From Kiritimatiellia bacterium (lineage in GTDB: Bacteria; Verrucomicrobiota; Kiritimatiellia; RFP12; DVOR01), in the NCBI GenBank assembly GCA_036651955.1, contig JAVVWU010000002.1, forward strand, positions 6,459 to 70,458: 64,000 nucleotides of DNA, in the 5' to 3' direction. Shown here piece by piece: positions 6,153-31,423 of the stretch. Both the position numbers and the translations under genes were made by a program. The notes beneath the pieces are model-generated. The model was given only the letters and a program-made list of their open reading frames with translations. It made no database searches and was not told the DNA's origin. Each line of letters opens with the position of its first letter. Positions within the stretch are counted from its first letter, which is position 1.

Positions 6153-6887
6153 ATGATCGAAGTTTCACCTGATCCCGATGGGATTTTGCCCGTGGATAAA
6201 CCGGTCGGCATGGTGTCTCATGTCGTGGTTGCGACGTTACGCAGAAAATTTGGCTTTCTAAAAGTAGGACATGGCGGTACATTGGATCCCGATGCTTCTG
6301 GACTACTGTTGATTCTGCTTGGCAAGGGAACGAAGATTTCCGACCGCGTCATGGGTGGCGATAAAAAGTATATCGGCACCATTCGTTTCGGTGCGGCGAC
6401 AACGACACAAGATCGTCTCGGAGAAATTACGGAATCTCATTCGACTGAAGGGCTGACGGAGGCGGCGGTAACCGAAGCGATGAAAGCGTTTACCGGTGAT
6501 GTGTTTCAAACGCCTCCGATGTATTCGGCTGTTAAAATAGATGGTCAACCGCTTTATAAAATGGCGGTTCGTGGGGAAGAGTGTGAACGTGAACAGCGCT
6601 TTATTCATGTCTATTCTTTTCGTGTAACGGCGTTTCGCCCTTCGGCAGAACGTGCGGAGGCAGATTTTGAAGTGCGTAGTACCAAAGGTACATATGTACG
6701 AACGTTGGCGCACGATTTAGGGCAGGCATTAGGCGTAAGTGCGCATTTGTGTGCGTTGAGAAGAGTTCAATCGGGGATTGTCAATATTGAACGCGCTACG
6801 CCTTTTGCGGAACTTCTTGAAATGTCGCGCGCCGACCTTGTGGCGCGGACGATTCCTTGTGCTCAGTATCTTTCTGGAAAGTTGTGA
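6153..6887 (+). CDS. truB: tRNA pseudouridine-55 synthase TruB
   Basis: LPVDKP.G..SH, GHGGTLDP motifs. Confidence 0.9.
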   Translation: MIEVSPDPDGILPVDKPVGMVSHVVVATLRRKFGFLKVGHGGTLDPDASGLLLILLGKGTKISDRVMGGDKKYIGTIRFGAATTTQDRLGEITESHSTEGLTEAAVTEAMKAFTGDVFQTPPMYSAVKIDGQPLYKMAVRGEECEREQRFIHVYSFRVTAFRPSAERAEADFEVRSTKGTYVRTLAHDLGQALGVSAHLCALRRVQSGIVNIERATPFAELLEMSRADLVARTIPCAQYLSGKL

Positions 6888-7813
6888 AGGCTCGTTTTGT
6901 CCATTGCATTGAAGAAATTCCCTCCGATGCTGTACTTGCCATCGGGACGTTTGACGGAGTGCATACGGGACATCGCCTCATTCTCAATGCCGCGCTTGAT
7001 TTTGCTCGCCGAACAGGACGTGATGCGTGGGTGCTGACCTTTCATCAACATCCACTTTCTATTCTTGCACCGGAGCGTGCGCCACGTTCGATTTGTTCGC
7101 AGGAAGAGACGCTTGAGCAGTTGTTAGCGATGGGCTTCGTCAATCTTGCAACGGTTGATTTTACGCTTGAGCTTGCGGCAATTTCGCCTGAACAGTTCGC
7201 CGATTGTTTCCAACATGCCGTTCTTTTTTGCGGAGAGGATTGGCGGTTTGGTAAATGTGCGCAAGGGTCACCCGAATTGTTACGGGCGCATGGTGTGGAT
7301 GTGCGCGTTCAACCGTATGCGGAATACGCCGGTGTACGCGTGAGTAGTTCACGCATTCGTGATGCAATTACCGCAGGAATGTTTTCAGATGTTGCGGCAA
7401 TGCTTAGGCGTCCATGGAGATATCAAGGAACCGTGGTTCATGGGCGTGGCCTTGCGCGAAAGATGTTTGGCGTGCCAACAGCAAATGTTCTTTTTGACAC
7501 GACACGCGTTGCTCCTGCGCGAGGTGTCTATCGGGCGAAGGTTTCGGTGGAGCGGATTGGAACGTTGGACGCGTTAGTGAATTTTGGTATTGCGCCGAGT
7601 ATTAAAGGAGAGGCTTCGCCACTTTTAGAGGCGCATCTTTTAGCGTATGAGGGTGATCTTTATCAGAAGCAACTCTCTTTTTCGTTCGAGCATGATCTTC
7701 TTCGTCCCGAGCGAACGTTTAGTTCCGTGGAGATGCTTAAAGCGCAGATTTTGTCCGATTTAGCAAACGTGCAGGGCGGTTACAATGAGCACTTTCTTGA
7801 GGAGATCAAATGA
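6857..7813 (+). CDS. ribF: Bifunctional riboflavin kinase / FMN adenylyltransferase. A GTG start at 6884 overlapping the truB stop is more likely than the TTG at 6857.
   Basis: GTFDGVHTGH motif. C-terminal riboflavin kinase domain. Confidence 0.85.
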   Translation: MCSVSFWKVVKARFVHCIEEIPSDAVLAIGTFDGVHTGHRLILNAALDFARRTGRDAWVLTFHQHPLSILAPERAPRSICSQEETLEQLLAMGFVNLATVDFTLELAAISPEQFADCFQHAVLFCGEDWRFGKCAQGSPELLRAHGVDVRVQPYAEYAGVRVSSSRIRDAITAGMFSDVAAMLRRPWRYQGTVVHGRGLARKMFGVPTANVLFDTTRVAPARGVYRAKVSVERIGTLDALVNFGIAPSIKGEASPLLEAHLLAYEGDLYQKQLSFSFEHDLLRPERTFSSVEMLKAQILSDLANVQGGYNEHFLEEIK

Positions 7814-10672: not shown

Positions 10673-10921
10673 ATGGCAATTGAAACTGAAGTTTACAGTG
10701 ATGGTATTTATCAAATTCATTTGATTGAGAATATGATTCGTTTGGACTTTATGCGCCTTCAGCCAAGTCCTGAAAGTAAAACTCCTGTACCTAAACCATT
10801 TGAACGCGTCATTCTCAATCCACAAGGTTTCTTACGTACCTATGAGGCCATGGGACAAATCGTTGCAAAGCTTGAAGAAATGGGATTGGTTCATCGGAAC
10901 AATCCGCCGCCACAAGCCTAA
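10673..10921 (+). CDS. Small hypothetical protein (82 aa)
   Basis: Strong AAGGAG RBS 8 nt upstream. No recognisable domain. Confidence 0.45.
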   Translation: MAIETEVYSDGIYQIHLIENMIRLDFMRLQPSPESKTPVPKPFERVILNPQGFLRTYEAMGQIVAKLEEMGLVHRNNPPPQA

Positions 10922-11094
10922 GTCCTAATCGCTTCTCTTTATTTTACAACGTTATACGTTAATAGGCTCTGCCACATAGGTAGCGCACTTATTTCGATTG
11001 GTACTTATTTTCTGCCGTGAGGGAGACCGGTCGGTCGTCCTCTTTTTGTGCGCGTAGCTCAAATACGAGATGCAGCGTTGCTCCCAATGAGTCT

Positions 11095-11345
11095 GGACTT
11101 ACTCTGCATTAGTCCACATCGGCAGTCGGAAATGAAACACTACTTATGCAAAATGGCACAGTTGTGGCACGGTTGCTTTGAAGCCGCGCCTCACTGAGGT
11201 GAAAGTCTTACCTCAGTGAGGTAGACCTCGCACCTCATTGACCCTGACCTCGTACCTCAATGAGGTACGCAATCGAATCTTTTGGAATATCTCTTGAAAT
11301 CTGTGTGGCGTATGACTAAAGCTCTGAAAATGAATGCATAAGGTT
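11095..11345. repeat. Conserved intergenic module, copy A. It contains a TGGCAC direct repeat, two tandem hairpins, a conserved 3' box and TGCATAAGT motifs.
   Basis: About 200 bp is alignable to 23556-23755 at roughly three-quarters identity by eye. Confidence 0.65.
11154..11169 (+). promoter_or_regulatory. Sigma-54-like -24/-12 element TGGCACagttgTGGCA (GG-N10-GC spacing)
   Basis: Exact -24 TGGCAC. The -12 reads TGGCA rather than TTGCA. Copy B has 1 nt less spacing. Confidence 0.3.
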
Positions 11346-11490
11346 GCTCGCTCGGACAGCAGTTACCGGAATGTGCGGAGTGGCTCATTCTTTCTTATGA
11401 GGACTATTATCTGCGTCTAATTTCTTGCATAAGTGTTGTTGTAAGATCTCAATCCTATTTCATTTGACCTTTTTATAAAAGTTCCTTTAC

Positions 11491-11517
11491 CTCATAATAG
11501 CCTCTTCCTATTATGAG
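11491..11517. promoter_or_regulatory. Perfect 10-bp inverted repeat CTCATAATAG-N7-CTATTATGAG upstream of the DegT locus
   Basis: Seen directly. No T-tract on either strand, so operator-like rather than a terminator. Confidence 0.4.
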
Positions 11518-11659
11518 CGATGGTCTTACTCTCGCCGCGTAATCGATTGACAAAGGCTCTAAATCTGAAGCTGGATTGCTTTGATGGCTCGGATTTCGTA
11601 TCATTAGCGCTACAACTTAATTTTATAGCGAAGAGCGCCCCTGTTGAGGGTACCTTATT

Positions 11660-12805
11660 TTGAAAGTAGGGATACGAGTGAAAAAATTTGAAACGCCGAT
11701 ACTTGTTACGCGTCCATGGCTTCCTCCATTGGAGGAGTTCTCACAGGGACTAGCTGAAATCTGGAAGAATCAATGGCTGACAAATAATGGGCCGGTATTG
11801 GAACGTTTCCAAGCGGCACTCGCGCAACAGTTGGGATTGAGTACGAGGAATTTGTCGTTATTTGCAAATGGGACTTTAGCACTTGAGTTGATGTTTCAAA
11901 CGTTAGGGCTTGCCGGAGCAGAAGTTGTTACGACACCTTTTACATTTGTTGCAACCAGTCATGCGTTACGCCGGATCGGTGCAATTCCTGTATTTGCAGA
12001 TGTCGATCCGGAAACGCTATGCCTTTCACCTGAAGCGGCTGAACGAATGATTACGTCACGTACCAAGGCAATTGTTCCTGTACACGTCTACGGACATCCT
12101 TGCGATATCGATGGTTTTGCGCGATTGGGAGAAAAGTACGGGCTGAAAATCGTTTATGATGCGGCTCACTCATTTGGTGTTACGCTTGATGGCGCTTCAA
12201 TTGCGACTTATGGCGATGCGTCTATGTTTAGTTTCCATTCCACAAAACTCTTTCATAGTATTGAAGGCGGGTTGCTAACTTTTCGAGATGCAACAATTCA
12301 AGGTGGATTAGAGTGTTTGCGCAATTTCGCGATTACTTCTGAAACGACGTGTGATGCGATTGGCACGAATGCCAAAATGAACGAATTTGCTGCACTTATG
12401 GGCTGTTGTGGGCTTCGTCAATTGCCCGATCTGATTGCTCATCGCAAGGCGATTTAGGAGATTTACGCTCAAGCATTTGAAGGAACGCCAGTGAAATTGT
12501 TGGCGCGTCCAACGCATATGGCGCGGCATACGGTTGGACACAACTATGCTTACTGCCCTGTACTTCTTCCTGATTTTGAAATGCGAGAGCGCGTTTATGC
12601 GCGATTGAAAGCGTTTAATGTCTTTACACGTCGCTACTTTTACCCTCTGCTTTCGGCATTTGCTCCCTATCAAGATACGCGTGGAAATACGCCCATTGCC
12701 AAAAAAGCAGCTGATTGTGTCTTAACGCTTCCAACCTATCATGGGCTTGCCCTTGAAGATGTTCGTGTCATTGCTCAAAACGTTGTAGAGCTTGTTCAAT
12801 GTTGA
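11660..12805 (+). pseudogene. DegT/DnrJ/EryC1 (ArnB/PglE-like) sugar aminotransferase interrupted by an in-frame TAG at 12455-12457
   Basis: The two ORFs 11660-12457 and 12491-12805 are in the same frame. Conceptual read-through gives ...HRKAI*EIYAQAF..HNYAYCPVLL, a contiguous DegT sequence. Confidence 0.7.
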
Positions 12806-13620
12806 AACGTCTTATTATTGTTGGTGCTAGCGGTATGGGGCGTGAAGTCGCGTCTTATGCAAAAGAGGCTTTGCCGACACTTTCAATCGCAGGATTCTTG
12901 GATGATCGATCTGATTTATTGAACTCCTTTGATGGATTACCGCCCATCCTTGGATCTGTCGAAGCGTGTCATCCGCAAAAGAACGATTACTATCTTGTGG
13001 CTGTAGGTGATGCAGAAGCGCGTGCGCATTATGTTGATTGTCTTATGGTTCGTGGGGCGCATTTTGCAACGCTTATTCATCCGACTGCGTTTGTCGCGTC
13101 ATCAGCAACGCTGGGAGAAGGATGTATTATTTGCCCACAAAGTGCGGTTTCTACAAACGTTCTAATGGGGCGGCATACAATCCTCAATTTAGGTGCATCG
13201 GTAAGTCATGATTGTGAAGTGGCAGATTTTTGTACGCTCTCTCCGGGCGCTCGACTTACAGGCGCCTGTCATTTAGGACAAGGCTGTTTTCTTGGGGTGA
13301 ACGCGTCGCTGATTCCGAAGATTCATTTGTCCGCGTACACGAGTGTGGGTGCAGGGGCTGTTGTAATCCACGCCGTTCCAGAATGTCATACAACGCTTGC
13401 AGGCGTTCCGGCGCACGAGATTTCTCGTGGGGGGGGGTGGAATTCGTGGCAAAATCTCCATCAAAAAGAATGTAATTGCATAAAGTTTACGTCTTCTGTC
13501 AGATTACAAAGAGATTCTAAACAACACATTTATTTTGATACAAAGCGTACTTTCTCTAAGAGGGAAAGTACGCCGTCATTTTTACGATTATACAGTTCAT
13601 CAATTATGAAGGTAAGTTAA
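12799..13620 (+). CDS. NeuD/PglD-family sugar N-acetyltransferase (hexapeptide repeat). The last ~60 aa are likely an artefact of the poly-G tract at 13431-13439; the -1 frame ends at 13481.
   Basis: MLKRLIIVGASGMGRE N-terminus with left-handed beta-helix repeats. The ORF runs through an intrinsic terminator. Confidence 0.7.
   Translation: MLKRLIIVGASGMGREVASYAKEALPTLSIAGFLDDRSDLLNSFDGLPPILGSVEACHPQKNDYYLVAVGDAEARAHYVDCLMVRGAHFATLIHPTAFVASSATLGEGCIICPQSAVSTNVLMGRHTILNLGASVSHDCEVADFCTLSPGARLTGACHLGQGCFLGVNASLIPKIHLSAYTSVGAGAVVIHAVPECHTTLAGVPAHEISRGGGWNSWQNLHQKECNCIKFTSSVRLQRDSKQHIYFDTKRTFSKRESTPSFLRLYSSSIMKVS
13545..13584 (+). terminator. Rho-independent terminator (10-bp stem gcgtactttc/gaaagtacgc, then a T-run)
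   Basis: Seen directly. It lies inside the annotated 3' extension of ORF 12799-13620. Confidence 0.6.
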
Positions 13621-13621
13621 A

Positions 13622-14254
13622 ATGCGGAAATCGGTTTATATTATCGGTGCGCGTGGATTTGGTCGTGAGTGTGCGAATAATCTTCAAATGGATCAGCGGT
13701 TCAGAGAAAATTATGAACTGAAAGGATTCTTAGATGACAAAGCAGATGCACTCAATGGATTTGATAATTATCCTCCGATAGTTTCCTCGGTAGAGGACTT
13801 TATCCCACGGGAAAACGATGTCTTTGTCTGCGGACTTGGCAAAAATGAATATCGTAAGAAGTACATTGAAATAATGTTAAGTAAAAAGGCATATTTCCAA
13901 ACGTTCATTCATCCGACTGCAATTATTCATCCAACAGCAGTTCTTGGAGTTGGTGTTCTTGTTGGGGCAATGACAACTGTAAGTGCAGATGTAAAGGTCG
14001 GAGATTTTACACTTATCCACCCATACAACTGTTTAGGTCATGATACTGTTTTAGAACGGTTTTGCGTGAGTGAATGCTTTAGCTTCTTTGGCGGATTCTC
14101 ATTTGTGGGTGAAGGTGCAACGATTCATACGCGTGCAACAATTCTTCCACATATAAAGGTAGGTCGTGGAGCCGTCGTTGGGGCAGGAAGTGTTGTTCTT
14201 CGCTCTGTATCTGAAGGTACAACCGTTTTTGGTAATCCAGCGATTAGATTTTAA
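13622..14254 (+). CDS. NeuD/PglD-family sugar N-acetyltransferase, paralog B, in a low-GC block
   Basis: MRKSVYIIGARGFGRE N-terminus with hexapeptide repeats. Visibly AT-richer than its neighbours. Confidence 0.8.
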   Translation: MRKSVYIIGARGFGRECANNLQMDQRFRENYELKGFLDDKADALNGFDNYPPIVSSVEDFIPRENDVFVCGLGKNEYRKKYIEIMLSKKAYFQTFIHPTAIIHPTAVLGVGVLVGAMTTVSADVKVGDFTLIHPYNCLGHDTVLERFCVSECFSFFGGFSFVGEGATIHTRATILPHIKVGRGAVVGAGSVVLRSVSEGTTVFGNPAIRF

Positions 14255-14273: not shown

Positions 14274-15257
14274 TCACGATTGTGCAGGCATTCTGTTGTG
14301 CCAGATTTTGGGGTGGGCTGGGAGGTTGGTAGGGGCGTAGCCGGGGAGTTGTTCGTGCATGGTTGGAACGGATGGGTGAAGCAGATCTGTCGTTGCAATG
14401 GTACGTGCCGCGTGTGGCAAAAGCTTCCATGGTCCGGTGAGGGAATCGTGTAGAACATATGAGATTTTTTGGCTCATCGGCTTACTTTCACTGGGTGCAT
14501 GATCTACGAATAAAAGCCCATGTTCGCGTGCGCGATCGCACATCCATGCAAGTGTAGTTTCGGGAAGTCCACGCCCACTATAGCCGCCACCAATGTCTGT
14601 ATGGGAACCGGCAAACCAAACTTCGGTTACGCGTGAGTCTGAAATAAAACGGGTAGGAGAGAATGCGTTGCGGCATTCGTCGATGGCGAGTGCGTGGTAG
14701 GCGGCATTGACGCAAGCCGGTAAAGTTTGAATGCCAAAATCTTCGGTGAAGGTCGTTTGTACCGTGTCCCATACGCCGAGCATCTCAATGGGGACGTTCT
14801 TGTACCCATGTTGAGTAGAGAGGCTTTTTGCCAGCGCTACATCGTGACTTCTAAAGGCTTTTATCGCAAGTTGTTCACTCTCTTTCATCGGCGGAATACC
14901 ACAGAAGTCAATGAGACTTGCTAACCATCGTGCCGCAAAAGCACCTCGGCTGAATCCGAAAATATAGAGACGCGGTGTTAATCCTTTATCAAAAGCATGC
15001 GCGCAATCGCGTTGTGCTGTACGATAGGCTTCAATGACACGGCTTTCTAAGTTTACACCGGCAACACTTCCGGGAATGAATTCATCGGGACGTGTGCCAA
15101 TGCCGGCTTCATAATGTGTGATTTGAGCTGTTACGTCTAGCACGGATACCCACCGTTGCAATCGGGCAACATTTCCCCACTGTTCTTTTATTTTCGCTTG
15201 ATCAATATCCATGTCGGTGCCATCAATGGTAAGAACGATATTAAAGAATTTAGGCAT
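14274..15257 (-). CDS. DUF2235 alpha/beta hydrolase (T6SS Tle1-like phospholipase domain)
   Basis: N-terminal IDGTDMD, a GFSRGA nucleophile elbow and WFAGSHTDIGGGY. AAGGAG RBS. Confidence 0.75.
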   Translation of the reverse strand: MPKFFNIVLTIDGTDMDIDQAKIKEQWGNVARLQRWVSVLDVTAQITHYEAGIGTRPDEFIPGSVAGVNLESRVIEAYRTAQRDCAHAFDKGLTPRLYIFGFSRGAFAARWLASLIDFCGIPPMKESEQLAIKAFRSHDVALAKSLSTQHGYKNVPIEMLGVWDTVQTTFTEDFGIQTLPACVNAAYHALAIDECRNAFSPTRFISDSRVTEVWFAGSHTDIGGGYSGRGLPETTLAWMCDRAREHGLLFVDHAPSESKPMSQKISYVLHDSLTGPWKLLPHAARTIATTDLLHPSVPTMHEQLPGYAPTNLPAHPKIWHNRMPAQS

Positions 15258-23499: not shown

Positions 23500-23760
23500 C
23501 TGCTTATGCACGGACTCTATTCTGCATAAGTCCACATAAGAGGTCATAACAAAAGCAGCACTTATGCAAAGTGGCACAGTCTGGCACGGTAATGAAGATG
23601 CGGCGGCCTCAGTGAGGTAAGCCCTCTACCTCACTGAGGTACGAGGTCAGGGTCAGTGAGGTACGAGCTCTACCTCATTGAGGTGCGCGACGAAACGTTT
23701 TGGAATATCTCTTGGAATCTGCGAGGAATAGTACTAAAGCTTGGAAAATGAATGGAATGG
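23500..23760. repeat. Conserved intergenic module, copy B
   Basis: Alignable to copy A. Hairpins at 23607-23639 and 23653-23681. Confidence 0.65.
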
Positions 23761-26900: not shown

Positions 26901-27732
26901 GCGTGTTGCCGAATCTGATCGTGATGGAGCGTCAGGACAAGGTTCACTCTTTGATTCATTGGGAGAAGAGGCGGATAAAGCTTTTTGTGAAGAAACATTG
27001 CCCGATGGTCCGCCGATGAGTGAGAAGAAAAAACTTCAAGAAGAACGCGATCTCTTAGGTGTTTATCTTTCGGGACATCCGTTGGATCGCTATCGTACGT
27101 TGGCGAGTTCATTCCGCACCTGTCGTATTGCCGAGCTTGCTCAACAGCCGGACGATACGTTGGTAAGGCTAACGGGATTTGTCAGTGTCTTGCGTGTCAA
27201 TATTTCAAAGAAAACGAAAGAACCATGGGCTTCGCTCATATTAGATGACGGAGAAGCGACGATTGAAGTTTTGGTGTTCCCGCGATGTTATGGGCAATAT
27301 CAATCGGCTTGTGTCCTTGATACGCCTATTCTTGTCTGTGGACGCATTAAATGTGAAGACGATCGCGGTACGAAAGTTTTTGCGAGCGAAGTTTATACGC
27401 TTCAATCGGCACCCTCACTCTTCGCAAAAGGGATTTCTCTTCGTTGTCATGTTGAGAATGACGCGGCATCTGCCAAACGATTAAACGAGTTACAGCAAAT
27501 ATTGGAAACTCACAAGGGCGGATTTAGTGTTGCCATGGCGTTAGAACTTCCCGAGAAAACGATTCTTTTCAATCCGGATAAACGGTGGAGTATTGATCCT
27601 TCTCCTGAATGTATTACTGCAATCGAAGCACTATGGGGGCATCATACGGTAACGTATCAGATGAAGAATAGTGCCATTTGCCTTGAGGCAAAAAACAATC
27701 GTCCGCGTTTTGTACCACGAGAGGGCTCATAG
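23980..27732 (+). CDS. dnaE: DNA polymerase III alpha subunit
   Basis: PHP domain, polymerase core, OB-fold. 1250 aa. Confidence 0.95.
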   Translation: MSEKIKEVAVDVPQVPFVHLHVHTGYSLLDGACQVPALVARAKALGMRACAITDHGNLFGLKEFYDSCRKAKIKPILGCEAYVARLGRKNREQRSGDHLILLAKNLTGYHNLLKLISLAHTEGFYGRPRIDWELLERYHEGLICSTACLAGIVPRMIEDGRIDEAERIALQYRALFGDDYYFEVMLHPSVVSVYAEQLNAQVHRRQVILRDELLKLGARLQIKVIATNDVHFLREDDGPAHDILLCVSTGKKQAEGKRLRYTQQEWFKSYEEMQKLFPDHLEVLHNTLEIEKKVEAYELNSDPIMPVFPIPEAFGTEAQYAQRFPEEVLCKEFGARYEKFKGYEKVVRIKLESDYLAHLTWKGAALRWQGAALTEEIRTRIEFELETIKTMGFPGYFLIVQDYIAAARALGVIVGPGRGSAAGSAVAYSLRITDIDPLKYDLLFERFLNPDRISMPDIDVDFDDEGRGRVLQWVTEKYGADHVGHIATFGIMAPKSAIKDVSRVLDYPIAEANVLAGMVPEAPKITFAKAFVENPRLAEILDGPDPQKRQIMELAMRLEGTTRNAGVHACGIIISRDPLMETIPITPTDNEELMTTQYGGHFVEPIGLLKMDFLGLKTLSVLKACLESIKESHGVDVDMEQIPIDDKETFELFSRGETDGLFQFESDGMKGHLRVLKPNRFEDLVAMNALYRPGPMQYIPSFVKRKHGQEKISYDHPLMEHYLKDTYGITVYQEQVMLLSRALGQFTRGESDSLRKAMGKKQIETMEELYGKFVKGCLSNPKFMEACRGEADAKERIEKIWGDWKKFAEYAFNKSHSVCYAYIAYQTGFLKAHYPADFMCAQISSEIGHFDKMPALVAAASEMGLQVLPPDVNASRSHFSPEGKTAIRFGLGAIRGVGVLAGDAIVLERQKNGPYKGLIDFCKRLSGLAAKDINEGKNLVHKRVVDALIRSGAMACFSHCHQGQLLANIDFAFSRVAESDRDGASGQGSLFDSLGEEADKAFCEETLPDGPPMSEKKKLQEERDLLGVYLSGHPLDRYRTLASSFRTCRIAELAQQPDDTLVRLTGFVSVLRVNISKKTKEPWASLILDDGEATIEVLVFPRCYGQYQSACVLDTPILVCGRIKCEDDRGTKVFASEVYTLQSAPSLFAKGISLRCHVENDAASAKRLNELQQILETHKGGFSVAMALELPEKTILFNPDKRWSIDPSPECITAIEALWGHHTVTYQMKNSAICLEAKNNRPRFVPREGS

Positions 27733-27736
27733 GCTT

Positions 27737-28726
27737 ATGATTAGTATTGTGATGCCTGTATATAATGCCGAGGCGACAATTCGGCAAACCATTGAAAGTA
27801 TTCGTCAACAAACCTTTTCCGATTGGGAATGTATTTGTGTTGACGACGGTTCAATCGATGACTCGTGGAATATTTTGAAGCATTATAGTGCTGAAGATAA
27901 TCGTTTTATCTGCTTGCAGCAACAGAATGCCGGACCTTCTGCGGCACGGAATGCGGCATTGCAAAAGGTGCGCGGTGATTGGTTGATGTTTGTTGATGCT
28001 GATGATCTCTTAGCATTGCGGACATTGGAACTTTCGCTGAAAGTTGCGGAAGGTGAGCGTGTGGATGCGGTGATTTTCGCTTATGAAATAATCCCATGGG
28101 AATCGACTGCGGAGTCAATGGCATGGTTGAATGCCTCTTTGGCGATGACATCAAGTCCTGAAACGTTCTGCTCGACTACGCCGGTTAAAACGGTTTTCTC
28201 GCAAGCGAACCTCCGCAGTGTTTGGGGCAAATTGTACCGTATGGACTGTGTGCGCGATGTTCGGTTTGACATTGATCAAGTCCCCGGGCGGGAAGATATG
28301 CTGTGGTTGTGTGAGGCAACCACAAAGCTTCAACGGTTGAGCGTCATGCCTCAGAAATTCTATGGATATCGTGTGGGGGAATGCTCAGTCACGCGTCGCG
28401 CAATTACCGTCGATTATTTGTTATGGCATCTTCGGAGTGAAGCGAAAGTGGGGCGCTTTTTAGTTGAACAGGGAAAGCGTTCATCCGAATGGAAAGAGGT
28501 GAAGGATGCCTATCAGAATGTCATTTTCACCGAGAATCTCAAATGGCTTTTCCAAAAGACGAAAGAGTTAAGGAAGAAAGACCTTGCGGACTTTCGTTCT
28601 TCTTTGCGTGAGATGGTAAAAGCAAAACTTTTTCAGCCTCAGTATCTGTCGATTTCCAAGAGGTTCTTGGTGATGATGTTTTTACTTGGTTGGGATGCGC
28701 CTTTGTGGCGTCGATACAGAGGATAA
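27737..28726 (+). CDS. GT2-family glycosyltransferase
   Basis: ISIVMPVYNAE...DDGSID...VDADD motifs. Confidence 0.8.
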   Translation: MISIVMPVYNAEATIRQTIESIRQQTFSDWECICVDDGSIDDSWNILKHYSAEDNRFICLQQQNAGPSAARNAALQKVRGDWLMFVDADDLLALRTLELSLKVAEGERVDAVIFAYEIIPWESTAESMAWLNASLAMTSSPETFCSTTPVKTVFSQANLRSVWGKLYRMDCVRDVRFDIDQVPGREDMLWLCEATTKLQRLSVMPQKFYGYRVGECSVTRRAITVDYLLWHLRSEAKVGRFLVEQGKRSSEWKEVKDAYQNVIFTENLKWLFQKTKELRKKDLADFRSSLREMVKAKLFQPQYLSISKRFLVMMFLLGWDAPLWRRYRG

Positions 28727-28730
28727 ATAG

Positions 28731-30815
28731 ATGAAACAGACTTTTCTTTTGTTGTTTACAATCTTTGCTGGCTTGCTGGCGGGAATAGCCTATCGTCTTT
28801 ATGGGCAGTGGACGGGAGAGGCTTCGGTGTGGGGCGTGATTGTGCCGAGTATGGTTGCTGCATTATCGTTGGCATGGTTGACGCGTCGGTGGGTAGGGGG
28901 AAGAGGTTGTGCTGCGCTGGCGGTTCTTTGTGCGGTGATGGCCTTTTCAATGTTTGGTCATACCGTGCAAATGGTTCACGACTGGACATTCCTTTCGCTT
29001 AAAATCAATCTGACGTATCGGGAGTGGTGGCTGTTCGTATTAAATCATGCCATGATGTGGTTCGTGCCATTAGCGTTCACGCTCGTTTATATTTGGCGGT
29101 GCAATGCGATTCCTCGTGGTCGTATGACGGCGTTTGTGGGTGCATGTGTCGGGCTTATTTTGGCGCGATTGATGGTGGGAAGAATGTCCACAACATTGTT
29201 GATAGACATTTGCCTTGTTGGACTTTTACTTTCGGCTCCTGCATGGTTGGCAGCGGAGTTGCGGGGGAAATGGACGCGAGGATCGGCATTTGTACTTGCT
29301 GTAGTTCTTTTAGTCGGATGGTATTTTACTTCGCGTTCTGCACCGCAAGAATTATTACGGGATGTGAATCCATTTGCAACGATTGCCACGCGCGATTTGC
29401 TTTATACGGGAATTGGTACGGAGGGAGTGACGTTGCGGGAAGGTCGTTTACTTCGACGTGTTGGATTTGATACCGCCTCCAGTTTTGCCTCGCAACTGAT
29501 TCCAACGCTGTTGAAGCCTCAGACGAATGCGCGTATTGCGGTGCGGCTTCTTGCCGGTGGTGAAGCACTTCCGACCTATGATGTGAATGAACTTAAAGGT
29601 CAATATGATGCTTTGTACGTGGAGCTTCCGCCGGCATGGGTGACTTCCGAAAGAGATTATTTTGGAACGGCGGCACTGGATGCGGCATTGACGCATTTGT
29701 TTCAGGATGGTGTACTCGTTTATGCGATGGATGCAAGATGCCTTGATGCTCGAATGATGATGGAGCGTGTGGCGATTCTTCGTCAACGATTTGGAAATGT
29801 TCAGCTTTGGATGACAGGACGTGACCAATGGCAATTAGTTGCTTCGCGTTCGCCTATTACGACGGACTTTGTGGCGGTTTCAACGCTTTTGGATCGTCCC
29901 GAATTAGCGCATGCTCTTTTTGCCGCAGAGATTGATACTGCCATAAGTTTGTTCTCCTGCTTTATCGCAGAGGCGTCGGCGTTGGATAAAGCTTTGGCGG
30001 AACCAATCTCGCCGGAAATTCGTCCACGTGAGTCTACTCTCGCACGTAAGCTCCTGTTTGATGGTATTGGGAGCCAACGTTTATCAAAGGAGTTTGAACC
30101 TTTTCGTGATTATGAAATGTCGTGGGTGAAAGTTCCGACGGAATCGGGCGAGGATCTTCGTGCGGTATTAAAGGTCTTACAAACGGCGCGTCATTTGGCA
30201 ATTGAAGGGAAGCTCAAAGAAGCCTCTGAAATGAATCCTTGTGACCCTTATTTACTCGGGCTTGCAGATCGTGAAATCTCAAATGCACGTGCATGGGAGA
30301 AACTTGCGGAGCATGAAAAAGCAATCGCGTCCTATCTCTCTGCATTTGCGATTGCAAAGCCCAGCCTCATTGATGTGTTAGCGGCAGCGAGTATTGTCGA
30401 AGAAACAAGAACTCCTGAACGTGCTGAGCTGCTTTATAAACTCGCACATGATTTGGCGCCTGATAATATGGCTTATCTCTTCCAATATATGTCCTTCTTG
30501 AAAAATCGTAAACAGTATGTGAAAGCTCAGCAGATTGCAGACCGCGTTGTCTGTTTGGCGGGATCGTTCGATCTTGCCACACGTGCGATGCTTTTTTCTG
30601 CACAGATGGTCGTGCAGCAAGGGCGTGTCAAAGAGGGATTGGAAACGGCACGCCAATTGGCGGAGGCGGCTCAAACATCAGTCGATAAAGATTATTTTAT
30701 CCTCGCTTATGCTCAACTGCTCATTGATACGGGGTCGCCTGTTTTGGGGATCAATGTTAAACGACACTATGCTGCTTATCATGAACTGTTACCGCAGAAA
30801 GAGGAGAGAAAATGA
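28731..30815 (+). CDS. Polytopic membrane protein with a spermidine-synthase-like fold and a C-terminal TPR-like region
   Basis: Many TM helices, then LYVELPP...GVLVYA, then helical repeats. Assignment is tentative. Confidence 0.45.
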   Translation: MKQTFLLLFTIFAGLLAGIAYRLYGQWTGEASVWGVIVPSMVAALSLAWLTRRWVGGRGCAALAVLCAVMAFSMFGHTVQMVHDWTFLSLKINLTYREWWLFVLNHAMMWFVPLAFTLVYIWRCNAIPRGRMTAFVGACVGLILARLMVGRMSTTLLIDICLVGLLLSAPAWLAAELRGKWTRGSAFVLAVVLLVGWYFTSRSAPQELLRDVNPFATIATRDLLYTGIGTEGVTLREGRLLRRVGFDTASSFASQLIPTLLKPQTNARIAVRLLAGGEALPTYDVNELKGQYDALYVELPPAWVTSERDYFGTAALDAALTHLFQDGVLVYAMDARCLDARMMMERVAILRQRFGNVQLWMTGRDQWQLVASRSPITTDFVAVSTLLDRPELAHALFAAEIDTAISLFSCFIAEASALDKALAEPISPEIRPRESTLARKLLFDGIGSQRLSKEFEPFRDYEMSWVKVPTESGEDLRAVLKVLQTARHLAIEGKLKEASEMNPCDPYLLGLADREISNARAWEKLAEHEKAIASYLSAFAIAKPSLIDVLAAASIVEETRTPERAELLYKLAHDLAPDNMAYLFQYMSFLKNRKQYVKAQQIADRVVCLAGSFDLATRAMLFSAQMVVQQGRVKEGLETARQLAEAAQTSVDKDYFILAYAQLLIDTGSPVLGINVKRHYAAYHELLPQKEERK

Positions 30816-31423
30816 AAAAACAGGTATTGATTCTTGGTGCGGGCGGTTTGGGGCGTGAAGTCTTTCATTGGGCACACGATTGCGGTTATGAAGTCCTTGG
30901 GCTGATAGACGACAATCAAAATGCGCTTGAAGGCTACAAAGGTTACGCCCATATTCTCGGAGGCGTTGATGATATTCCTCTTATGGCGCCTATTATTTGT
31001 GGCGTTGGTAAAAGTGCGGTGCGTCGAGCCTGTGTAGAACGGTTGCTCGTGCGCGGTGCAGAATTTGTTTCTTGTGTTCATCCGCTAGCGAAAGTTTTGG
31101 ACGGGAGTACGTTTGGGCGTGGAGCAGTGATTGCGCCCTTTGCCTATGTTGGAGCAGATGTGAACGTTGGCGATTTTCTTTTTATGCAGACAGGTGCAGT
31201 TTTAGGGCACGATGTTGCGGCAGGTGATTTTTTGCGAATGGATACCACCGCATTCGTTGGCGGTTTTTCGCAAATTGGAAATGATGTGACGCTTTATACC
31301 GGTGCAAAGGTAATGCCGGGGAAAACAGTGGGTGACCATTGTACGCTTGGGGCAGGATCGGTTCTGCTCAATAATTTATATGCAGGAGCAACGGCATTTG
31401 GTGTTCCTGCTCAAAAGATTTAA
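30812..31423 (+). CDS. NeuD/PglD-family sugar N-acetyltransferase, paralog C
   Basis: MKKQVLILGAGGLGRE with hexapeptide repeats. Confidence 0.8.
   Translation: MKKQVLILGAGGLGREVFHWAHDCGYEVLGLIDDNQNALEGYKGYAHILGGVDDIPLMAPIICGVGKSAVRRACVERLLVRGAEFVSCVHPLAKVLDGSTFGRGAVIAPFAYVGADVNVGDFLFMQTGAVLGHDVAAGDFLRMDTTAFVGGFSQIGNDVTLYTGAKVMPGKTVGDHCTLGAGSVLLNNLYAGATAFGVPAQKI

What the first reader, a model, noticed from the sequence alone, without database searches (positions are those of the whole stretch)
12455..12457. In-frame TAG inside an otherwise intact DegT/ArnB-family aminotransferase
ORFs 11660-12457 and 12491-12805 share a frame. Reading through the TAG gives ...LIAHRKAI*EIYAQAFEGTPVKLLARPTHMARHTVGHNYAYCPVLL..., a continuous ~380-aa DegT sequence that includes the characteristic C-terminal block. 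TAG is used as a genuine stop elsewhere in the window, for example at 1666-1668. This is therefore a fresh nonsense mutation or pseudogene, a sequencing error, or a suppressed or read-through codon. Because it sits in a surface-glycan locus next to a poly-G tract, an on/off switch of glycan modification is plausible.
Basis: seen in the sequence. Interest (0 to 1): 0.5.

Follow-up and report, generated by a model that had tools for sequence, protein, structure and literature searches.

The report
One-base nonsense mutation in sugar aminotransferase
The in-frame TAG is real in this sequence, but it is a single T-to-G change (Tyr codon TAT to stop) seen only in this metagenome-assembled Kiritimatiellia genome, so it is an ordinary recent gene knockout or a base-calling error, not a recoded codon or a programmed switch.

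Summary
TAG at 12455-12457 interrupts an otherwise perfect 375-codon DegT-family (PF01041) gene, 11678-12805. Pfam matches profile positions 5-247 before the stop and 249-359 after it.

Seven related loci are 98.4-99.7% identical in DNA: five sibling Kiritimatiellia MAG contigs and two independent SRA-run assemblies. All carry TAT (Tyr) at this codon. Tyr is also the majority residue in 60-74%-identical homologues, and all 120 best homologues listed are full length (360-391 aa). The stop is therefore a lineage-private T>G change at 12457.

The gene is under purifying selection in the species (dN/dS about 0.17). The window's copy has only one other private change in the gene, and it is synonymous. 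The other 19 genes comparable with siblings are intact. TAG ends ThiF-like, DnaE and RseP genes normally, and no suppressor or Pyl tRNA lies in the window. The public record apparently gives the gene no protein product.

Best reading: a young loss-of-function allele (about 0.72). Rival: a consensus or base error (about 0.2). Recoding or a switch at this codon is unsupported.

The poly-G tract lies 972 bp downstream, at the 3' tail of the next gene. It varies in length (G9/G10) but cannot truncate that enzyme's domain. Interest is low.

The parts
11678..12805 (+). DegT/DnrJ/EryC1/StrS-family sugar aminotransferase gene, 375 codons, interrupted at codon 260
   Evidence: Pfam PF01041 matches on both sides of the stop. 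It is 99% identical to the intact 375-aa P0001 of a sibling MAG. The start GTG 11678 is the one called in sibling MAGs.
12455..12457 (+). In-frame TAG (codon 260). It is TAT (Tyr) in all seven related loci, so this is a private T>G change at 12457
11678..12457 (+). N-terminal fragment ORF (259 aa). It keeps the PLP-lysine motif FSFHSTK (K190) but loses 25 family-invariant positions downstream, including RRYFYPLL 318-325
12491..12805 (+). Possible restart ORF (GTG, 104 aa, C-terminal domain). AAGGA lies 6 nt upstream of the GTG. No evidence that it is used
   Evidence: Its exact product and four other start variants are absent from the 15-billion-protein collection.
11611..11647 (+). Window-private changes 31-67 nt upstream of the DegT start: C>T at 11611, C>T at 11642, and a 2-bp (AG) deletion after 11647
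   Evidence: Six of 20 private variants fall in the 11% of compared sequence around this gene (binomial p about 0.016, region chosen post hoc).
12799..13620 (+). NeuD/PglB/VioB-family N-acetyltransferase 1. Its start overlaps the DegT stop (ATGTTGA). The 273-aa ORF as assembled is a roughly 210-aa domain plus a 63-codon extension that has no homologues
   Evidence: (TIGR03570 197.9 bits against cut-off 160.8)
13429..13437 (+). Poly-G tract (G9) at codons 211-213 of acetyltransferase 1, after the domain end ...GVPAHEISR. It is length-variable between assemblies
   Evidence: G9 in the window, L002 and L003; G10 in L007; three sibling contigs end inside the tract.
13545..13573 (+). Terminator-like hairpin (13 pairs, then a T-rich tail) between the two acetyltransferase domains, inside the G9-frame extension
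13622..14254 (+). NeuD/PglB/VioB-like acetyltransferase 2 (210 aa). Its ATG lies 1 nt after the stop of the G9-frame ORF
10993..13978 (.). Segment missing from one sibling contig (L100). This is an apparent 2,986-bp deletion allele that removes DegT, acetyltransferase 1 and the 5' part of acetyltransferase 2
11189..11267 (.). Array of ACCTCAnTGAGGT palindromes at 22-nt spacing in the 756-bp spacer upstream of DegT. Sibling locus L097 diverges from the window at this point

Best explanation
The window is part of a contig of a metagenome-assembled Kiritimatiellia genome. In its lineage a single T>G transversion at 12457 turned Tyr260 (TAT) of a DesI/VioA-like nucleotide-sugar aminotransferase into an amber stop.

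Shown: the ancestral state is TAT. The gene is intact and under purifying selection in conspecifics. The stop is private to this assembly. The rest of the gene is undamaged.

Inferred: translation ends at codon 259. The product keeps the PLP lysine but lacks the C-terminal domain (115 aa, 25 family-invariant positions), so it is very probably inactive. Because the downstream acetyltransferase start overlaps the normal DegT stop (ATGTTGA), early termination also removes translational coupling and may lower expression of the two acetyltransferases. The strain would then lack the N-acetylated amino-deoxy-sugar this 3-gene cassette makes.

This is a young, ordinary loss-of-function allele in a cassette that varies in other ways in the same species (an apparent 3-kb deletion allele and a different downstream sequence in one MAG). 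It is not a programmed or reversible device.
For: 1. Single-codon interruption with no frameshift.
2. All seven related loci (5 NCBI sibling MAG contigs and 2 Logan assemblies of SRA runs, 98.4-99.7% DNA identity) have TAT. The six sibling proteins that cover the site have Y.
3. Homologues at 60-74% identity have Y (majority), W, C or H at this column, and all 120 best hits listed are 360-391 aa.
4. Purifying selection in the species: 17 synonymous against 9 non-synonymous differences, dN/dS about 0.17. The window has only one other private change in the gene, and it is synonymous.
5. The assembly is not error-ridden. 19 of 20 genes called in siblings are full length, without stops or frameshifts, in the window. 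Its 20 private variants are mostly third-position transitions.
6. Other variant states of the same cassette exist in conspecific assemblies: L100 joins 10992 directly to 13979, and L097 diverges after 11267. Private changes also cluster just upstream of the gene.
7. In the public record, MEG1787686.1 (the 82-aa gene at 10673-10921) is followed directly by MEG1787687.1 (the acetyltransferase). In a sibling MAG, DegT takes the number in between (MEG1552903/904/905). The interrupted gene therefore has no protein product in the deposited annotation.
Against: No reads are available, so a consensus or base-call error cannot be excluded. The TAG allele occurs in only one assembly. Neither truncated product, under six start variants, is present in the protein collection from any independent assembly. 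The loss of activity and the polar effect are inferred from family knowledge and were not tested. The clustering of private variants near the gene was tested on a region chosen post hoc.
Confidence: 0.72

Rival explanations
1. Sequencing, polishing or consensus error. The organism really has TAT, and G at 12457 is an artefact or a minority allele picked by the assembler.
For: The allele is seen in one assembly only, and every other conspecific sequence has T. The gene is otherwise flawless. MAG consensus sequences can carry minority or erroneous bases. No independent assembly yielded the truncated products.
Against: The rest of the compared 22 kb shows no other stop or frameshift. The window's private differences look like real divergence, being mostly synonymous transitions. 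Substitution errors are rare in a consensus at normal coverage (general knowledge). The same cassette shows other variant alleles in this species.
Confidence: 0.2
2. The TAG is decoded, giving a full-length enzyme. Possible routes are an amber-suppressor tRNA, pyrrolysine, a reassigned code, or programmed read-through.
For: The reading frame is perfectly preserved after the stop. From general knowledge, near-cognate decoding of UAG can give a low basal level of full-length protein.
Against: The codon is TAT in all conspecifics, so TAG is not conserved. TAG ends the complete ThiF-like, DnaE and RseP genes. The window's only tRNAs are Pro-CGG, Leu-CAG, Glu-CTC and Ser-CGA. Of the 20 genes comparable with siblings, DegT is the only one with an in-frame stop.
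Confidence: 0.03
3. A phase-variable on/off switch of glycan modification acting at or through this codon, linked to the neighbouring poly-G tract.
For: The G tract is length-variable between assemblies (G9/G10), and three contigs break inside it. The cassette modifies a sugar.
Against: No repeat lies at the TAG. A transversion is not a high-frequency reversible event. The tract is 972 bp downstream in another gene, after the end of its catalytic domain. G8, G9 and G10 all keep the whole domain, giving 227, 273 and 225 aa.
Confidence: 0.02
4. A functional split gene. The 259-aa N-terminal part and a 104-aa C-terminal part, re-initiated at GTG 12491 behind AAGGA, assemble into an active enzyme.
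For: A plausible Shine-Dalgarno-like AAGGA lies 6 nt before the in-frame GTG at 12491.
Against: All 120 closest homologues listed are full length, so none of them is split. The split is one substitution old and absent from conspecifics. The restart fragment would also lack residues 260-271.
Confidence: 0.02

Closest known systems
DesI of Streptomyces venezuelae (PDB 2PO3), the dTDP-4-keto-6-deoxyglucose 4-aminotransferase; more broadly VioA/WecE-type 4-aminotransferases
   Same: It is the best solved-structure match (E 4.5e-61 over residues 4-367), with the same PLP-lysine motif FSFH(S/A)TK. The best NCBIfam model is TIGR04427 PLP_DesI. One 66%-identical homologue sits next to a WecF-like PF07429 transferase.
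   Different: It scores far below every equivalog cut-off: DesI 263.6/650, PseC 191.5/423.5, WecE 156.5/375, ArnB 137.1/631. The substrate and product are therefore unassigned. The copy in the window is interrupted.
Aminotransferase plus NeuD/PglB/VioB-family N-acetyltransferase gene pairs (VioA/VioB, PglE/PglD)
   Same: A DegT-family gene is followed directly by an acetyltransferase that passes TIGR03570 (197.9 bits against 160.8), with overlapping stop and start. One homologue of the acetyltransferase is named dTDP-4-amino-4,6-dideoxy-D-glucose acetyltransferase by UniRef.
   Different: There are two tandem acetyltransferases. No dehydratase or nucleotidyltransferase is adjacent. The cassette is embedded among housekeeping genes, not in a large glycan cluster.
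Homopolymer (poly-G/C) contingency genes of glycan loci in Campylobacter, Neisseria and Haemophilus (recalled from general knowledge)
   Same: A G9 tract sits in a sugar-modification gene. Its length differs between close relatives, and assemblies break inside it.
   Different: The TAG is not in a repeat. The tract lies at the 3' tail of a different gene and cannot truncate its domain.
Natural amber polymorphisms and recent nonsense pseudogenes in bacterial populations (for example rpoS amber alleles of E. coli K-12, recalled from general knowledge)
   Same: A single-base change creates TAG in an otherwise intact gene and is polymorphic among close relatives.
   Different: Nothing essential differs. 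Here the evidence comes from MAG consensus sequences and not from isolates.
Pyrrolysine (UAG) recoding
   Same: There is an in-frame TAG in an enzyme gene.
   Different: The TAG is not conserved in orthologues. TAG is used as a normal stop. No Pyl tRNA is in the window.

Membership tests
DegT/DnrJ/EryC1/StrS aminotransferase family (PF01041) | Pfam match above the gathering score across the whole profile | tested here: met
   238.3 bits (profile 5-247) plus 37.2 bits (profile 249-359), against a cut-off of 19.8
DegT/DnrJ/EryC1/StrS aminotransferase family (PF01041) | PLP-binding lysine in the S-x-H-x-x-K motif | tested here: met
   FSFHSTK with K190. S185, F186, H187, T189 and K190 are invariant in the 16-sequence alignment and align to FSFHATK of DesI.
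DegT/DnrJ/EryC1/StrS aminotransferase family (PF01041) | Uninterrupted ORF of about 360-390 codons encoding both domains | tested here: not met
   TAG at codon 260 in the window. The feature is met in all conspecific copies.
ArnB (UDP-4-amino-4-deoxy-L-arabinose aminotransferase) | NCBIfam equivalog NF008658 at or above its cut-off | tested here: not met
   137.1 bits against a cut-off of 631, and only residues 24-287 match
DesI / dTDP-4-dehydro-6-deoxyglucose aminotransferase (TIGR04427) | Equivalog score at or above its cut-off | tested here: not met
   263.6 bits against a cut-off of 650. It is nevertheless the best model and the best PDB hit.
Recent nonsense pseudogene or loss-of-function allele | A stop codon where close relatives and the wider family have a sense codon, differing by one base | tested here: met
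   TAG against TAT in 7 of 7 related loci. The family column is Y/W/C/H.
Recent nonsense pseudogene or loss-of-function allele | The variant is real in the organism and not an assembly error | not testable with these tools
   No reads are available.
Simple-sequence-repeat phase variation (contingency locus) | The switch site lies in a repeat whose length change shifts the frame or the promoter spacing | tested here: not met
   No repeat lies at 12455-12457. The only G/C homopolymer of at least 8 in the window is at 13429-13437.
Simple-sequence-repeat phase variation (contingency locus) | Tract length varies among close relatives | tested here: met
   This applies to the poly-G tract only: G9 (window, L002, L003), G10 (L007), and three contigs ending inside it.
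Simple-sequence-repeat phase variation (contingency locus) | A frame change switches the gene product off | tested here: not met
   G8, G9 and G10 give 227, 273 and 225 aa, and all contain the full domain of about 210 aa. Outside the sibling cluster, the listed homologues align only to about the first 210 aa.
Pyrrolysine or amber recoding | TAG conserved at the site in orthologues | tested here: not met
   TAT in all conspecifics and sense residues in the family
Pyrrolysine or amber recoding | tRNA with a CUA anticodon and pyl genes in the genome | not testable with these tools
   Only 64 kb is available. None of the 4 tRNAs found has a CUA anticodon.

The most novel reading that the evidence does not exclude
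The DegT-acetyltransferase cassette may be a contingency locus in this gut- or rumen-type Kiritimatiellia species. It appears in several alternative states in conspecific assemblies: the nonsense allele here, an apparent 2,986-bp deletion allele, and a different downstream sequence.

Separately, the poly-G tract at the 3' tail of acetyltransferase 1 may act as a switch of an unusual kind. In the G9 frame, ribosomes would read 61 further codons. That frame is open with shuffle probability about 0.006. It runs across a strong terminator-like hairpin and stops 1 nt before the ATG of acetyltransferase 2. In the G8 and G10 frames they stop about 130-150 nt earlier. Tract length could therefore toggle terminator override and translational coupling, and so expression of the second acetyltransferase.

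One unrelated locus (L013) has a C11 tract at the same position, with the same kind of frame-dependent extension into the next gene.
Probability: 0.12. Interest if true: 0.5.

Novelty: already known. Interest (0 to 1): 0.1.

Why it matters
It matters little in itself. A single-base nonsense allele in a sugar-modification gene of an uncultured bacterium is a routine pseudogene or annotation issue, and the deposited record apparently already withholds a protein for it.

Its practical value is as a quality-control flag for this MAG. It is also one data point that the cassette is dispensable or variable in the species. Only the side observations could be worth a population-genomic follow-up: several alternative states of the cassette, and length-variable homopolymers at the 3' ends of acetyltransferase genes.

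Tried and rejected
- Exact-pattern scans with N at the variable base (CATCGCAAGGCGATTTANGAGATTTACGCTCAAGC) found nothing in genome contigs or metagenome contigs. Those collections do not hold this species at this locus.
- Exact look-ups of the truncated products found nothing. I tried two start variants of the N-terminal part and four of the C-terminal part. No independent assembly with the TAG allele could be found, and the window's own contig was not returned by the look-ups.
- A paper search for the run, assembly and contig accessions gave no hits. The sample type and sequencing platform remain unknown.
- Rfam found nothing in the 756-bp spacer upstream of DegT, even at E <= 1.
- Recoding or pyrrolysine was rejected. 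The TAG is not conserved, TAG is a normal stop in the ThiF-like, DnaE and RseP genes, and no CUA tRNA is in the window.
- The poly-G tract as an on/off switch of acetyltransferase 1 was rejected. The tract lies after the domain end.
- An inversion between the two palindrome arrays, as the explanation for L097, was rejected. The divergent part of L097 matches nothing in the window.
- The GTDB scan with the protein found no close relative. The best hit was 68% (Candidatus Spyradenecus sp.), so there is no species-level reference.

Full report
**1. The observation**

The sequence at 12455-12457 is TAG. It lies in frame between ORF 11660-12457 and ORF 12491-12805. Reading through gives a continuous DegT-like protein with one internal stop. 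Pfam PF01041 matches the upstream part at profile positions 5-247 (E 1.9e-70) and the downstream part at 249-359 (E 2.5e-09). Exactly one codon is affected and there is no frameshift.

**2. Where the window comes from**

Exact protein look-ups place the neighbouring genes on a 93,859-bp contig of an NCBI 'MAG: Kiritimatiellia bacterium':
- MEG1787686.1 is the 82-aa gene at 10673-10921.
- MEG1787687.1 is the 273-aa acetyltransferase at 12799-13620.
- MEG1787688.1 and MEG1787689.1 are the next two genes.

No protein number lies between 686 and 687. In a sibling MAG, DegT takes the intermediate number (MEG1552903/904/905). The deposited annotation therefore gives the interrupted gene no product, most likely as a pseudogene. 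That last step is my inference.

**3. What codon belongs here**

The closest database protein, P0001, is 375 aa, intact and 99% identical. I compared seven related loci, 98.4-99.7% identical to the window in DNA:
- Five sibling MAG contigs: L001, L002, L004, L006, L007.
- Two Logan assemblies of runs SRR25820367 and SRR25820368: L003 and L005.

All seven read TAT at this codon. Six sibling proteins that cover the site have Tyr. In homologues at 60-74% identity the column is Tyr in most, otherwise Trp, Cys or His. All 120 best hits listed are 360-391 aa, so none of them ends here.

The TAG is therefore a derived T>G transversion at 12457, private to this assembly.

**4. Age and quality**

- Among conspecific copies the gene shows 17 synonymous against 9 non-synonymous differences, the nonsense change included. 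That gives dN/dS of about 0.17, so the gene is maintained by selection in the species.
- The window's copy has only one further private change in the gene, and it is synonymous (V373). The interruption is therefore young.
- The assembly is not error-prone. Of 20 genes called in sibling MAGs that map to window 1761-23468, 19 are full length without stops or frameshifts, and only DegT is hit.
- The window's 20 private variants over the 11.7 kb where at least three comparators are available are mostly third-position transitions.
- Six of these 20 fall in or just upstream of DegT. They include two substitutions and a 2-bp deletion 31-67 nt before the start codon. The binomial p is about 0.016, but the region was chosen post hoc.

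**5. Read-through or recoding**

TAG ends 5 of 54 long ORFs. These include complete ThiF-like, DnaE and RseP genes whose Pfam matches reach the end of the profiles. The window's tRNAs are Pro-CGG, Leu-CAG, Glu-CTC and Ser-CGA. The TAG is not conserved in any relative. Nothing supports designed decoding. Only basal near-cognate read-through, known in general, can be assumed.

**6. What the gene is**

- The best solved structure is DesI, PDB 2PO3, at E 4.5e-61.
- NCBIfam ranks DesI, PseC, LegC, WecE and ArnB models, all far below their cut-offs. It is a DegT-family nucleotide-sugar aminotransferase of unassigned specificity, with a C-4 aminotransferase flavour. It is not demonstrably ArnB.
- The PLP lysine (K190 in FSFHSTK) lies before the stop. 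Twenty-five family-invariant positions, including RRYFYPLL 318-325, lie after it. The truncated product is very probably inactive (inference).
- The next gene starts inside the normal DegT stop (ATGTTGA) and passes the NeuD/PglB/VioB acetyltransferase model. A second such gene follows.
- Homologues at 66-74% identity sit in Wzx/glycosyltransferase clusters, one beside a WecF-like gene.
- In the window the cassette is flanked by housekeeping genes: nusA, infB, rbfA, truB, ribF, mazG, serC, corA, dus and dnaE.

**7. The poly-G tract**

The only G/C homopolymer of at least 8 in the window is G9 at 13429-13437. It lies 972 bp downstream of the TAG, at codons 211-213 of acetyltransferase 1, right after the domain end ...GVPAHEISR.
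- G8, G9 and G10 give 227, 273 and 225 aa, and all keep the domain.
- The listed homologues outside the sibling cluster are mostly about 196-245 aa and align only to about the first 210 residues.
- The tract therefore cannot switch that enzyme off, and it has no mechanistic link to the TAG.

The tract is nevertheless length-variable. It is G9 in the window, L002 and L003, and G10 in L007. Three sibling contigs end inside it.

The G9 frame stays open for 61 codons of AT-rich spacer, with a shuffle probability of about 0.006. It crosses a 13-bp terminator-like hairpin at 13545-13573 and stops 1 nt before the ATG of acetyltransferase 2.

One unrelated locus, L013, has C11 at the same place. There too, only the assembled frame extends into the next ORF. 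I record this as a lead, not a finding.

**8. Other variation at the cassette**

- L100 joins window 10992 directly to 13979. This is an apparent 2,986-bp deletion of DegT, acetyltransferase 1 and the 5' part of acetyltransferase 2. The same MAG also holds a contig with the cassette (L002).
- L097 matches the window up to 11267, the end of an ACCTCAnTGAGGT palindrome array, and then continues with unrelated sequence.
- Many contigs end between 10992 and 11921.

This raises the prior that the nonsense allele is a real variant.

**9. Verdict**

| Reading | Probability |
|---|---|
| Young lineage-private nonsense allele | about 0.72 |
| Consensus or base error | about 0.2 |
| Recoding, phase variation at this codon, and a functional split gene, combined | below 0.1 |

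This is an already-known kind of event and of low interest. The decisive test is a read pile-up at 12457.

Noticed in passing
window 13429-13437 with 13438-13622; L007, L001, L004, L006; L013 4298-4308: The G9 tract at the 3' tail of acetyltransferase 1 varies in length (G9/G10), and three sibling contigs break inside it. Only the G9 frame stays open for 61 codons (shuffle p about 0.006). That frame crosses a terminator-like hairpin (13545-13573) and stops 1 nt before the next gene's ATG. An unrelated locus (L013) has C11 at the same position with a similar frame-dependent extension into the next ORF.
   Followed up: partly
window 10993-13978; L100 (GCA_036653435.1 JAVVTY010000044.1): A sibling contig joins 10992 directly to 13979 with 1-nt overlap. 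This is an apparent 2,986-bp deletion allele of DegT, acetyltransferase 1 and the 5' part of acetyltransferase 2. It coexists in the same MAG with a cassette-bearing contig (L002).
   Followed up: partly
window 11189-11267 and 23607-23684; L097 1940-3842: An array of ACCTCAnTGAGGT palindromes at 22-nt spacing lies upstream of DegT. An inverted copy (93% over 60 nt) lies 12.4 kb downstream. The segment between them has GC skew near 0-0.1, against 0.15-0.22 outside. Sibling locus L097 diverges from the window exactly at the end of the first array into unrelated sequence that encodes a 179-aa secreted-looking ORF.
   Followed up: partly
window 11611-11647: Three window-private changes lie within 37 bp, 31-67 nt upstream of the DegT start: two C>T changes and a 2-bp AG deletion. 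They alter a small CCCCC-GTTGAA-GGGG hairpin that is conserved in all five siblings.
   Followed up: partly
L008 2445-2453 and L009 52-61: Two near-identical loci carrying a 74%-identical DegT have G9 and G10 at the same site, about 90 nt upstream of a polysaccharide-deacetylase-like gene. This is another length-variable homopolymer in a Kiritimatiellia-type glycan cluster.
   Followed up: no
L092 2125-3945 and L093 1834-3654: In a 72%-identical DegT locus, a DarT/Macro (DarTG-like toxin-antitoxin) gene pair is inserted between the aminotransferase and its acetyltransferase.
   Followed up: no
window 6857-7813 (ribF): Against sibling L001 this gene shows 6 non-synonymous and only 1 synonymous difference. 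All neighbouring genes show the opposite pattern.
   Followed up: no
window 14274-15257 (-): A Tle1-like/DUF2235 phospholipase-effector-domain gene (PF09994, E 6e-45) sits directly downstream of the acetyltransferases on the opposite strand. No T6SS genes are evident nearby.
   Followed up: no
window 30812-31423: A third PglD/NeuD-like hexapeptide acetyltransferase lies 17 kb downstream, next to a GT2 gene (27671-28726) and a 694-aa protein with no Pfam match (28731-30815). Glycan genes are scattered in small groups among housekeeping genes.
   Followed up: no
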